This document shows, piece after piece, positions 16,301 through 19,300 of a DNA stretch of 64,000 nt. The position numbers were made by a program. This DNA is from Escherichia coli. Its GTDB lineage: Bacteria > Pseudomonadota > Gammaproteobacteria > Enterobacterales > Enterobacteriaceae. Every line of letters begins with the position of its first letter. Within the stretch, counting starts at the first letter, position 1. The stretch lies in assembly GCF_003334255.1 (NCBI RefSeq), contig NZ_QOWU01000008.1; one strand, given 5' to 3'.

Positions 16301-19300
16301 AGGACCCAATATTTATTGGGTTCTTTTTTCTCTATCAATGCTATTAGCAGGGAGATATATCACCAGAGTTTAATGTGTGATTTTTTATTTATCGTCGAAC
16401 CTGGATTGTTTATCATTGGCCTTAACAAAGTTAACGGCTAATAAGATTATTTCCATCACTTCGTGAGAGCTTCATGCCTTGAGAGGATCTCAATTTTCTT
16501 TTGCAATGAGACAGGCGCTTCCTGTTGTTATGGTATAGTACCCCGCTATTGAGCCTCCTGAATAGTGATGCTGAATAACATAACCCCATGATATATCGAT
16601 AAAATAATCTCTACATTTGAAAATGCACGGTAATTCTGAAATGCAAAAAATCAACCAAACCAGCGCAATGCCTGAAAAAACTGACGTTCACTGGAGTGGT
16701 CGGTTTAGCGTTGCACCAATGCTCGACTGGACGGACAGACATTGCCGCTATTTCTTGCGTCTGCTTTCCCGCAATACGTTGCTGTATACCGAAATGGTGA
16801 CCACAGGGGCGATTATTCACGGTAAAGGTGATTATCTGGCGTACAGTGAAGAAGAACATCCGGTAGCGTTGCAACTGGGCGGTAGCGATCCGGCGGCGCT
16901 GGCGCAGTGTGCAAAGCTGGCAGAAGCGCGCGGATATGATGAGATCAACCTGAATGTCGGCTGCCCGTCTGACCGGGTGCAGAACGGCATGTTTGGTGCG
17001 TGTCTGATGGGTAATGCGCAGCTGGTTGCCGACTGCGTGAAAGCGATGCGCGATGTGGTGTCGATTCCGGTGACGGTGAAAACGCGTATTGGCATCGACG
17101 ACCAGGACAGCTATGAATTTCTCTGCGATTTCATCAATACCGTTTCCGGCAAAGGCGAGTGTGAGATGTTCATCATCCACGCACGTAAAGCCTGGCTTTC
17201 GGGGTTAAGCCCGAAAGAAAACCGTGAAATCCCGCCGCTCGATTATCCGCGTGTGTATCAACTGAAGCGTGACTTTCCGCATCTGACAATGTCGATTAAC
17301 GGTGGTATCAAGTCGCTGGAAGAGGCCAAAGCACACCTGCAACATATGGATGGCGTGATGGTCGGGCGCGAGGCGTATCAGAATCCGGGTATTCTGGCGG
17401 CGGTAGACCGGGAGATCTTTGGTTCCTCGGATACCGATGCCGATCCGGTGGCGGTAGTGCGCGCCATGTATCCGTACATTGAGCGTGAACTCAGCCAGGG
17501 GACGTATCTCGGCCATATTACCCGGCATATGTTGGGCTTGTTCCAGGGTATTCCTGGCGCGCGGCAGTGGCGGCGTTATTTAAGTGAAAATGCCCATAAA
17601 GCGGGTGCAGACATTAATGTGCTGGAACACGCGCTCAAACTGGTGGCGGATAAGCGTTAACTTTTCACCAAAAAGTAGTCAAATTCACCACGCCCTGCGC
17701 ACCGTCGCGGGGCGTTTTGCTGTTAAATCAATAGATTATTTTTGGCATGATTCTTGTAATGCCAGCAAGAGATTTCATATTTGGGAGAGCATCATGCTGG
17801 AACTACTTTTTGTGATTGGCTTTTTTGTCATGCTGATGGTCACCGGCGTTTCGTTGCTGGGCATTATCGCCGCGCTGGTTGTGGCGACGGCCATTATGTT
17901 CCTCGGCGGTATGCTGGCATTGATGATTAAGTTGCTGCCGTGGTTACTACTGGCGATTGCGGTGGTGTGGGTTATTAAGGCGATTAAAGCACCAAAAGTG
18001 CCGAAATATCAGCGTTATGACCGCTGGCGTTACTAAGGGATTGTGCGGATGATCACAACCTAAGGTTTTATCCTTAGAACAAAATAGGAATTGATAATCA
18101 AATCTGTCACTATTGCGCCTCTAACAGATTCATCGTGCTGTACCCTACATACAGCCGAACTATAAAAAGAAAGGGCTTCCCAGGTGGAAGCCCTATTTCT
18201 TTTATGGAATCAGCAGGCTGGAACCTTGCGTCGCCCGGCTTTCCAGAATCTCATGCGCACGCTGCGCATCCTTCAGCGGATATTTCTGCTGCTCGGCGAC
18301 ATCGACCTTAATCACACCGCTGGCAATCAAAGAGAACAGTTCATTACTGGCCTCGGTTAATTCCTCCCGCGTGGTGATATAGCCTTGCAGGGAAGGGCGT
18401 GTCACATACAACGAGCCTTTTTGATTGAGAATGCCTAAGTTCACACCGGTAACCGCACCTGATGAGTTGCCAAAACTGACCATTAAGCCGCGGCGTTGCA
18501 GGCAATCCAGCGACCGTTCCCAGGTGTCTCTGCCCACGGAATCGTACACCACGCGCACTTTCTTACCGCCGGTGATCTCTTTTAACCGCTCGACCAGATC
18601 CTCTTCACGATAGTTAATAACCTGCCACGCGCCCGCTTTTAGCGCGCTTTGCGCTTTTTGCGCGGTTCCTACGGTGCCGATAAGTTTCGCGCCCAGGGCT
18701 TTTGCCCACTGGCAGGCAATTAAGCCAACGCCGCCAGCCGCTGCGTGGAACAGGAACTGTTCATCGGGTTTAATTTCATAGGTTTTGCGCAGCAGATAAT
18801 AAACCGTTAAGCCTTTCAGGAAGGATGCCGCAGCTTGCTCAAAAGAAATTGCCGCAGGCAGAATCGCCGCTTTATCCGCAATAATGTTATGCACAGAGCT
18901 GTAAGCGCCTAACGCCGACTGCGCATAGACTACACGATCGCCTGCCTTAATATGCTTTACACCACTGCCGACTTTACTCACGATGCCTGCTGCTTCGGTG
19001 CCTAATCCGCTGGGTAGCGATGGCGGCGGGTAAAGGCCGCTGCGGATATATGTGTCGATAAAATTGATGCCGATGGCTTTATTTTCGACCTGGATTTCAT
19101 TCTCCGCCGGATCGGCAGGAGTGAACTCTACGGCTTGAAGTACTTCCGGGCCACCGTGCTTGTGAAATTCAATTCGTGTTGCCATGTGTCCTCCAGAACG
19201 TATCGTCAGGGTCTGCTTCATATGATAAAGTTTCGACCCATTCTTTATCTCGGTAACTCCATTCACTATGGCAGGAAATAAACCCTTCAACAAACAGCAG

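What the first reader, a model, noticed from the sequence alone, without database searches (positions are those of the whole stretch)
17661..18036. pspG as an isolated phage-shock regulon member with a degenerate sigma-54-like promoter
pspG encodes an 80-aa two-helix membrane protein, far from any other psp gene in this window. The only sigma-54-like element I can find (tggcatgattcttgtaa) has GT rather than GC at -12, so my promoter call is weak.
Basis: partly seen in the sequence, partly recalled or inferred. Interest (0 to 1): 0.25.

Follow-up and report, generated by a model that had tools for sequence, protein, structure and literature searches.

The report
Known pspG gene and sigma-54 promoter

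Summary
Window 17794-18036 (+) encodes the 80-aa PspG protein (TIGR02975, PF09583). It lies between dusA and qorA in K-12-like E. coli DNA, and the 64-kb window holds no other psp gene.

The homologous site is bound by sigma-54 in Salmonella, and the dusA-pspG spacer is bound by purified sigma-54 holoenzyme in vitro.

It is not degenerate:
- A weight matrix built from 132 other bound sites ranks it second of about 128,000 window positions, behind the fdhF promoter.
- That score is at the 58th percentile of real sites.
- T at -12 occurs in 74 of 79 species-level pspG promoters; C occurs in one.
- T at -12 also occurs in the pspA promoters of six genera.

Phylogenetic footprinting resolves the rest of the control region:
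- a PspF-enhancer-like block at 17664-17691;
- the dusA terminator hairpin, which shows covariation;
- a perfect IHF core at 17726-17738;
- a predicted start at 17769.

The finding is already known and of low interest. The only mildly new point is the conserved non-consensus -12 T shared by the PspF regulon promoters.

The parts
16623..17660 (+). dusA (tRNA dihydrouridine synthase A), the upstream neighbour. Its stop codon at 17658-17660 abuts the pspG control region.
   Evidence: RefSeq annotation of the identical K-12 region. dusA lies immediately upstream on the same strand in 79 of 80 species-level loci.
17664..17670 (+). Distal TTCACCA unit at about -105. It is a conserved non-coding half-site-like element 20 bp upstream of the proximal unit. 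I infer it to be a second, weaker PspF contact.
   Evidence: C14 is invariant and C12 and A16 nearly invariant in alignment A1 of 25 genera. The same 20-bp spacing of TTCGCCA and TTCGCTA units occurs upstream of pspA. The function is inference.
17675..17691 (+). Proximal PspF upstream activating sequence (UAS) candidate, GTAGTC-aaatt-CACCAC, centred near -86.
   Evidence: It is the most conserved block of the intergenic region (T.GTCAA.TTCACCAC). It sits a fixed 65-66 nt upstream of TGGCA in 72 of 80 loci. A matrix built from non-Escherichia orthologues scores 25.3 here, against 13.6 for the next window site. Its best hit in the 5.5-kb K-12 psp locus is the pspF-pspA intergenic repeat at L003 1911-1929. 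Literature: PspF binds one UAS at pspG (PMC3709507). The exact footprint was not available to me.
17690..17719 (+). dusA intrinsic terminator: a 10-bp GC-rich hairpin plus a T-run. It lies inside the enhancer-promoter loop of pspG.
   Evidence: Terminator scan. Fold energy is -19.1 kcal/mol, z = -2.5. 93% of cells are paired and 8 of 10 pairs show compensatory changes across 25 genera, with 0 of 500 shuffles as high and slid controls at 37-58% paired.
17726..17738 (+). IHF core site AATCAATAGATTA, a perfect WATCAANNNNTTR, ending 4 nt before the TGGCA of the -24 element.
   Evidence: It is one of 6 perfect matches in 128 kb of two-strand window sequence, with about 3 expected. TCA and TTA are conserved in at least 90% of genera. 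The gap to TGGCA is 4-5 nt in 59 loci and 14-15 nt, one helical turn more, in 5. A similar AAATCAA core sits at -46 in pspA promoters of five genera. IHF dependence of psp promoters comes from the literature.
17742..17758 (+). Sigma-54 promoter of pspG, TTGGCATGATTCTTGTA. The -24 GG is at 17744-17745. The -12 region is G17756 then T17757, where T replaces the consensus C.
   Evidence: It is identical to ChIP-seq site OS40 (PSSM 10.7, FAT 15, 'C' = confirmed in EcoCyc). It ranks second of about 128,000 window positions with a matrix built from 132 other bound sites. TGGCAY-N5-TTGN is present in 79 of 80 species loci.
17769..17769 (+). Predicted transcription start, 12 nt after the -12 T, giving a 25-nt leader with the Shine-Dalgarno sequence GGGAGAG at 17783-17789.
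   Evidence: This follows the -24/-12 geometry. Bonocora et al. predict the same position (19 bp after the motif centre, 25 bp from the pspG start). I did not see it in a TSS data set.
17794..18036 (+). pspG coding sequence: 80 aa, an integral inner-membrane effector of the Psp response.
   Evidence: TIGR02975 at 90.1 bits, PF09583 and the RefSeq annotation. The protein is hydrophobic over residues 2-62 with a basic C-terminal tail. It was found in the inner-membrane fraction experimentally (PMC2763126).
18172..18194 (.). Bidirectional intrinsic terminator shared by the convergent genes pspG (+) and qorA (-).
   Evidence: A 9-bp hairpin with T-runs on both strands. The only Rfam matches in 17000-19000 are two sub-threshold ctRNA_p42d hits on this hairpin (21.1 and 20.3 bits against a gathering score of 50), which I take as chance.

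Best explanation
The region is the monocistronic pspG transcription unit of E. coli, wedged between dusA and qorA.

**Resting state.** RNA polymerase carrying sigma-54 sits as a closed complex on TTGGCATGATTCTTGTA (17742-17758).

**Enhancer and DNA bend (inferred).** The enhancer-binding AAA+ ATPase PspF is encoded about 2.9 Mb away, next to pspA. I infer that it binds the conserved block at 17664-17691, about 85-105 bp upstream of the start. I also infer that IHF, bound at AATCAATAGATTA (17726-17738), bends the intervening DNA so that PspF can touch the polymerase. That intervening DNA contains the dusA terminator hairpin.

**Induction.** When inner-membrane stress titrates the inhibitor PspA away from PspF, ATP hydrolysis opens the promoter. 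Transcription then starts near 17769. The 80-aa membrane protein PspG is made and acts as an effector of the phage-shock response.

**The T at -12.** It is a conserved property shared with the pspA promoter, not a sign of a weak or decaying site.

**Basis of each step.**
- Shown by published experiments: sigma-54 binding, PspF and IHF dependence, and induction.
- Shown here: gene identity, motif rank, and conservation of each element.
- Inferred: the exact PspF contact bases, the role of the distal TTCACCA unit, and the exact start site.
For: **Gene identity.**

**Sigma-54 binding.**
- The sequence equals ChIP-seq site OS40, confirmed in EcoCyc.
- pspG is one of only five intergenic-site genes up-regulated on sigma-54 overexpression, attributed to PspF.
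- The pspG site in Salmonella is enriched 39-fold, TGGCATGATTTTTGTAAG.
- Reconstituted holoenzyme binds the dusA-pspG spacer in vitro.

**PspF and IHF.** PspF binds UASs at pspA and pspG. pspG has one UAS and is induced about 20-fold. The regulon is described as pspABCDE plus pspG.

**Motif strength.** The matrix rank is second in the window and at the 58th percentile of real sites.

**Conservation.**
- 79 of 80 loci carry TGGCAY-N5-TTGN, with T at -12 in 74.
- The UAS block, IHF core and spacings are conserved.
- The UAS matrix cross-hits the pspF-pspA enhancer region.
- pspA promoters of five genera share TTGTATT and an AAATCAA core.

**Insulation from dusA.** A dusA terminator with covariation separates dusA transcription from the pspG promoter. 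No sigma-70-like promoter was found on the + strand between 17400 and 18400.
Against: - The motif is not statistically exceptional under crude consensus searches. A matrix score this high is expected about 0.7 times per shuffled 64-kb window. The sequence alone would therefore not prove function.
- I could not read the primary papers (Lloyd et al. 2004; Green and Darwin 2004). The PspF footprint, the IHF footprint and any mapped start site are taken second-hand or inferred.
- The overall ungapped similarity between the pspA and pspG enhancer regions is not significant: 15 of 33 matches, reached in 1224 of 2000 shuffles. The UAS assignment therefore rests on short units, spacing, conservation and one matrix cross-hit.
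- The IHF core ends only 4 nt from the TGGCA of the -24 element, closer than I expected for an IHF site at a sigma-54 promoter (my own knowledge, not checked here).
Confidence: 0.95

Rival explanations
1. pspG is expressed mainly by read-through from dusA or from an unrecognised sigma-70 promoter, and the sigma-54 motif is incidental.
For: dusA and pspG are co-oriented and only 133 bp apart in 79 of 80 species. Simple consensus searches do not lift the motif above chance.
Against: - A strong terminator with covariation lies between dusA and the promoter.
- No sigma-70-like site was found on the + strand.
- Sigma-54 occupies the site in vivo and in vitro, and pspG RNA rises on sigma-54 overexpression.
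- The -24/-12 element is conserved in 79 of 80 species, while neighbouring leader bases drift.
Confidence: 0.02
2. The site binds sigma-54 holoenzyme but is a decaying, poorly functional promoter. The C-to-T change at -12 would then be mutational erosion, which is the sense of the first reader's word 'degenerate'.
For: - Only 4 of 135 bound E. coli sites have T at this position.
- Restoring C would raise the matrix score from 14.6 to 20.2.
- Induction is lower than at pspA, about 20-fold against 100-fold.
Against: - T is kept in 74 of 79 species spanning Escherichia to Yersinia and Brenneria. C appears once, although a T-to-C transition would be a single step.
- The same T is present in pspA promoters of E. 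coli, Salmonella, Klebsiella, Pluralibacter, Leclercia and Cronobacter.
- ChIP occupancy is substantial: FAT 15 in E. coli and 39-fold in Salmonella.
Confidence: 0.03
3. The sigma-54 site is one of the many transcriptionally silent binding sites, with a roadblock or architectural role, rather than a productive promoter.
For: Bonocora et al. stress that most of the 135 bound sites are inactive under laboratory conditions.
Against: - pspG is one of the few genes whose RNA responds to sigma-54 levels.
- The site is correctly oriented, 25 nt upstream of a conserved Shine-Dalgarno sequence and ATG.
- It is accompanied by conserved enhancer-like and IHF elements at fixed spacing.
- Deleting the pspG promoter region changes PspF dynamics and the pspA basal level.
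Confidence: 0.01

Closest known systems
E. coli K-12 pspG (yjbO, b4050) and its promoter PpspG, as described by Lloyd et al. 2004 and later Buck-laboratory work
   Same: It is the same locus. The 751-bp query (window 17500-18250) covering the gene and its control region is 100% identical to K-12. The promoter 17-mer equals ChIP site OS40. Regulation by sigma-54, PspF and one UAS is as published.
   Different: Nothing differs in sequence. My analysis adds the cross-species footprint, the conserved distal TTCACCA unit and the observation that the dusA terminator lies inside the enhancer-promoter loop. I could not check whether the primary paper already reports these.
E. coli pspA promoter (PpspA), the other PspF-dependent sigma-54 promoter
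   Same: - TTGGCAY-N5-TTGTA with T at -12.
- TTCRCYA units 20 bp apart upstream.
- An AAATCAA IHF-like core at -46, against -44 in pspG.
- The same activator and the same IHF dependence.
   Different: - PpspA is divergent from pspF and doubles as the pspF autoregulatory region.
- It has two full UASs and about 100-fold induction, against one UAS and about 20-fold for pspG.
- Its enhancer units sit 13 bp further upstream, at -118/-98 against -105/-85.
- It has no terminator inside the loop.
Salmonella Typhimurium pspG (STM4244) promoter
   Same: It is the orthologous gene, with promoter TGGCATGATTTTTGTAAG. It is bound by sigma-54 (39-fold) and assigned to PspF.
   Different: The two non-enterica Salmonella enterica subspecies I fetched (arizonae L016, diarizonae L033) carry an insert of about 33 nt in the leader, giving TGGCA-to-ATG distances of 84-85 against 51. 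Subspecies diarizonae has the consensus C at -12. The LT2 leader itself was not examined.
Canonical sigma-54 promoters such as glnAp2 or the fdhF promoter present in this window (54260-54276, - strand)
   Same: They share the -24 GG and -12 G with 11-nt spacing, closed-complex binding and the need for an enhancer-binding ATPase.
   Different: They carry C at -12, as do 125 of 135 bound sites, and use other activators: NtrC and FhlA, as assigned in the Salmonella table.

Membership tests
PspG protein family (TIGR02975 / PF09583) | Match to the family profile above the curated cut-off | tested here: met
   TIGR02975 equivalog at 90.1 bits against a cut-off of 53.7, covering profile positions 1-63 of 64. 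PF09583 at E 3.8e-25, covering 1-64 of 64.
PspG protein family (TIGR02975 / PF09583) | Small (about 80 aa) integral inner-membrane protein | tested here: met
   The protein is 80 aa, with continuous hydrophobicity over residues 2-62 and a Lys/Arg-rich tail. Literature reports two predicted helices and recovery in the inner-membrane fraction. The number of helices was not resolved here.
PspG protein family (TIGR02975 / PF09583) | Unlinked to the psp operon; conserved dusA-pspG-qorA neighbourhood | tested here: met
   No psp homologue is in the window. dusA lies upstream in 79 of 80 loci and qorA downstream in 78 of 80.
Sigma-54-dependent promoter | GG at -24 and G at -13, 11 nt apart, within a TGGCAY-N5-TTGCW-like motif | tested here: met
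   GG is at 17744-17745 and G at 17756. The matrix score is 14.6, second in the window and at the 58th percentile of 132 bound sites.
Sigma-54-dependent promoter | C at -12 | tested here: not met
   The base is T at 17757. Only 4 of 135 bound E. coli sites have T here, and pspA and pspG are two of them. This is a preference of the consensus, not a requirement: the site is bound in vivo.
Sigma-54-dependent promoter | Occupied by sigma-54 holoenzyme | not testable with these tools
   Published data: ChIP-seq OS40 with FAT 15, Salmonella ChIP-chip at 39-fold and gSELEX in vitro at 54%.
Sigma-54-dependent promoter | Transcription requires an enhancer-binding AAA+ activator bound upstream | not testable with these tools
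   Published: PspF binds the pspG UAS and is required. Tested here: a conserved enhancer-like block lies at -85 to -105.
PspF regulon promoter | PspF UAS resembling those of pspA | tested here: inconclusive
   For: shared TTCRCYA units 20 bp apart and a TAGT-N2-AATTC core. The orthologue-derived matrix has its best hit in the psp locus inside the pspF-pspA intergenic region (13.1 against 5.2 for the next independent site).

Against: the overall ungapped identity is not above shuffles, and no footprint data could be read.
PspF regulon promoter | IHF site between enhancer and promoter | tested here: met
   A perfect WATCAANNNNTTR lies at 17726-17738. It is conserved, with phased spacing. Binding itself was not tested.
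Rho-independent terminator (dusA) | GC-rich hairpin followed by a T-run, with the structure conserved through compensatory changes | tested here: met

The most novel reading that the evidence does not exclude
The non-consensus T at -12 may be a selected signature of PspF-dependent promoters rather than tolerated noise. It is kept in 74 of 79 pspG promoters from Escherichia to Yersinia and Brenneria, and in pspA promoters of six genera. A single transition would restore the consensus C, yet C appears only once.

One possible function is to weaken the -12 'lock' of the closed complex. That could suit an activator, PspF, that has no sensory domain and is controlled only by the inhibitor PspA. It might also make the promoters depend strictly on IHF-assisted looping.

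A related point concerns the pspG enhancer. It may consist of two phased TTCACCA units (17664 and 17684), like pspA, rather than the single UAS usually quoted.
Probability: 0.45. Interest if true: 0.3.

Novelty: already known. Interest (0 to 1): 0.08.

Why it matters
For the scan, it matters little. The gene, its membership of the Psp regulon and its sigma-54/PspF/IHF-dependent promoter were described in 2004 and have since been confirmed by several genome-wide binding studies. Its main value here is as a positive control, because a reader working from sequence alone located a real sigma-54 promoter to the base. The residual scientific point is small but testable. Both PspF-controlled promoters keep T instead of C at -12 across the Enterobacterales, which could tell specialists how -12 sequence tunes basal leak and activator dependence at sigma-54 promoters.

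Tried and rejected
1. Crude IUPAC searches for the sigma-54 consensus gave counts at or below chance. They were replaced by a weight matrix built from published bound sites.
2. The primary papers are not held: Lloyd et al. 2004, Green and Darwin 2004 and Jovanovic et al. 1996. PspF/IHF footprints and any primer-extension start site could therefore not be checked.
3. The IHF ChIP supplement of PMC3333857 is not held. The ChIP-exo paper PMC9104697 does not mention pspG. PMC3068692 says nothing about the pspG promoter. The CRISPRa paper and PMC2709558 give no UAS sequences.
4. My first guess for the pspA IHF site (AATCAGATCTTTA, L003 1979-1991) was dropped because it is not conserved in alignment A2. 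The conserved core is AAATCAA at -46.
5. An ungapped 33-mer comparison of the pspA and pspG enhancers was not significant.
6. An Rfam scan of 17000-19000 gave only two sub-threshold hits on the pspG/qorA terminator hairpin.
7. The scan found no sigma-70-type promoter on the + strand between 17400 and 18400.
8. The homologue search for PspA returned only close relatives (86% identity or more). pspA promoters of Yersinia, Vibrio and similar genera were therefore not examined.
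Full report
**What is there**

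The window is K-12-like E. coli chromosome. It is 99.98% identical to MG1655 over 38 kb. The 751-bp query (window 17500-18250) spanning the finding is 100% identical to MG1655 and many other strains. It is present in all 5426 complete E. coli genomes, where the features under it are annotated dusA, pspG and qorA.

The reading frame 17794-18036 (+) gives an 80-aa protein. It matches the PspG equivalog TIGR02975 (90.1 bits, cut-off 53.7) and Pfam PF09583 end to end. A tblastn search with K-12 PspA-F found no psp relative anywhere in the 64 kb, so 'isolated' is correct.

The published topology prediction is two helices with both ends in the cytoplasm, and the protein fractionates with the inner membrane (PMC2763126). 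My hydropathy profile shows one unbroken hydrophobic run, residues 2-62, followed by a basic tail.

**Is the promoter call more than chance?**

Loose consensus patterns say no. TGGCAY-N5-TTGY occurs twice against 0.87 expected. The full consensus with two mismatches occurs 39 times against 43 expected.

I then built a weight matrix from the 135 sigma-54 ChIP-seq motifs printed in Bonocora et al. 2015 (PMC4591121), leaving out pspG, pspA and fdhF.
- The pspG site scores 14.6, second of about 128,000 positions.
- The top position is the fdhF promoter at 54260-54276 (-).
- These two are exactly the two high-stringency ChIP sites that fall in this stretch of genome.
- The score is at the 58th percentile of the real sites.
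- About 0.7 sites this good are expected per shuffled window, which is roughly 7e-4 for the 133-bp dusA-pspG spacer on one strand.

**Experimental record**

- The 17-mer TTGGCATGATTCTTGTA is ChIP-seq site OS40, upstream of b4050 pspG. It is marked as experimentally confirmed in EcoCyc, with a predicted start 25 bp before the gene.
- pspG is one of five intergenic-site genes whose RNA rose on sigma-54 overexpression, attributed to PspF.
- In Salmonella LT2 the homologous site TGGCATGATTTTTGTAAG is enriched 39-fold (PMC3844500).
- Purified RNAP-sigma-54 selects the dusA-pspG spacer in genomic SELEX (PMC8743547).
- The Buck laboratory papers state that PspF binds UASs at pspA and pspG. They also state that pspG has one UAS and about 20-fold induction, against two UASs and about 100-fold for pspA. 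Removing the pspG promoter region alters PspF dynamics and the pspA basal level (PMC3709507).

I found no start-site map.

**'Degenerate'?**

Among the 135 bound E. coli sites, the base at -12 is C in 125, A in 6 and T in 4. pspA and pspG are two of the four with T.

I fetched pspG loci from 80 species-level genomes by protein similarity, which is blind to the promoter.
- 79 loci carry TGGCAY-N5-TTGN upstream of pspG.
- The -12 base is T in 74, A in 3, G in 1 and C in 1, the last being Salmonella enterica subsp. diarizonae.
- The spacer bases vary freely.
- The exception is Citrobacter werkmanii, which has TGTCAT at -24.

pspA promoters also read TTGTA: E. coli and Salmonella, and Klebsiella, Pluralibacter, Leclercia and Cronobacter, which have an invariant TTGTATTA. 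The T is therefore a conserved, regulon-wide feature, not erosion.

**Rest of the control region**

These assignments come from phylogenetic footprints. Positions are relative to a start at 17769.

1. *Enhancer-like block, 17664-17691.* It contains two TTCACCA units, starting at -105 and -85, that are 20 bp apart. The proximal unit sits in an imperfect palindrome, GTAGTC-aaatt-CACCAC. The proximal block is nearly invariant and sits 65-66 nt from TGGCA in 72 of 80 loci.
   - pspA has TTCGCCA and TTCGCTA units with the same 20-bp spacing, at -118 and -98.
   - A matrix made from non-Escherichia pspG orthologues has its best hit in the 5.5-kb K-12 psp locus inside the pspF-pspA intergenic region (13.1, against 5.2 for the next independent site).
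   - Overall ungapped identity between the two enhancers is not significant.
   - I therefore treat the exact PspF contacts as inference.
2. *dusA terminator, 17690-17719.* It has a 10-bp stem at -19.1 kcal/mol. 93% of cells are paired, 8 of 10 pairs show compensatory changes and 0 of 500 shuffles score as high. It lies between the enhancer and the promoter.
3. *IHF core, 17726-17738.* AATCAATAGATTA is a perfect WATCAANNNNTTR, one of six in the window against three expected. It is conserved, with a 4-5 nt gap to TGGCA, or 14-15 nt in five loci. pspA promoters have a similar AAATCAA core at -46.
4. *Promoter and downstream elements.* These are the -24/-12 element, the predicted start at 17769, the Shine-Dalgarno sequence GGGAGAG at 17783-17789 and the ATG at 17794.
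5. *Bidirectional terminator, 18172-18194.* It is shared with qorA.

No sigma-70-like promoter was found on the + strand. Rfam gave only two sub-threshold hits on the pspG/qorA terminator hairpin. The dusA-pspG-qorA order holds in 78-79 of 80 loci, including Yersinia, Rahnella and Brenneria.

**Mechanism**

The best explanation is the textbook one (confidence 0.95).
- Sigma-54 holoenzyme rests in a closed complex at 17742-17758.
- PspF bound at the upstream block is brought to it by an IHF-induced bend.
- When membrane stress releases PspF from PspA, ATP hydrolysis opens the promoter and the monocistronic pspG mRNA is made.

Binding and dependence are shown in the literature. Element positions and their conservation are shown here. 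The contact bases and the start site are inferred.

The rivals are each contradicted: read-through or sigma-70 control, a decaying promoter, and a silent binding site. The evidence against them is the terminator, the conservation pattern and the expression data.

**Comparison and novelty**

This is the known E. coli pspG locus itself, so the finding is already known.

The most novel reading not excluded is that the -12 T is selected in PspF-dependent promoters, and that the pspG enhancer has two phased units rather than one. It is a specialist point of modest interest and is testable with a T17757C reporter and footprints.

**Limits**

- The primary papers on pspG and the pspA UAS were not available.
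- IHF ChIP tables were not held.
- The PspA homologue search returned only close relatives, so distant pspA promoters were not examined.

Noticed in passing
window 54260-54276 (- strand): GTGGCATAAAAGATGCA is the highest-scoring sigma-54 motif in the window. It equals ChIP-seq site OS41, the known fdhF promoter. The window therefore holds two validated sigma-54 promoters.
   Followed up: partly
window 11224-11240 (-), 55351-55367 (-), 49060-49076 (+): Sigma-54 look-alikes score 13.5-14.0 with the ChIP-derived matrix. One is CTGGCACATGACTTGCC inside plsB. None is in the high-stringency ChIP-seq list, so they are probably chance or low-occupancy sites.
   Followed up: no
window about 17661-17793 (dusA-pspG spacer): Shimada et al. 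2021 (PMC8743547) report a genomic-SELEX peak for NtrC alone at the dusA-pspG spacer (58%), in addition to the RNAP-sigma-54 peak. I have no explanation. It could be cross-recognition of the PspF enhancer or an artefact.
   Followed up: no
L016 and L033 (Salmonella enterica subsp. arizonae and diarizonae), pspG leader: A GC-rich palindromic insert of about 33 nt (…GTAGACCCGGTAAGCGC.GT.CCGCCGGGCAAT…, REP-like) lies between the promoter and pspG. It stretches the TGGCA-to-ATG distance from 51 to 84-85 nt. L033 is also the only locus with the consensus C at -12.
   Followed up: partly
L078 (Yersinia vastinensis), also L079, L081, L083: The pspG leader is much longer: 206 nt from TGGCA to ATG in Yersinia, and 75-132 nt in Rahnella and Brenneria. 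From memory the Yersinia insert resembles an ERIC/IRU repeat, which I did not test. In the non-Enterobacteriaceae loci (five of the 80, not individually identified) the IHF core sits 14-15 nt from TGGCA, about one helical turn further than the usual 4-5 nt.
   Followed up: partly
L027 (Citrobacter werkmanii NBRC 105721), about 51 nt upstream of pspG: The -24 element reads TGTCAT instead of TGGCAT, so the invariant GG is lost, while the UAS, IHF core and TTGTA are intact. This is either a strain-specific promoter knock-out or a sequencing error.
   Followed up: no
window 17690-17715: The dusA terminator hairpin overlaps the last two bases of the conserved PspF-UAS block. It sits inside the enhancer-promoter loop in all Enterobacteriaceae examined. 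Whether this placement matters for looping or for insulation is unknown.
   Followed up: partly
window 15275-16260: AT-rich open reading frames upstream of dusA correspond to the frameshifted DUF2713 pseudogene of K-12. This may be a horizontally acquired remnant.
   Followed up: no
window about 4369-4400: This is the only structural difference from MG1655 in the 38 kb compared. About 59 bp are absent and are flanked by a 32-bp repeat, in the lamB-malM intergenic region.
   Followed up: no
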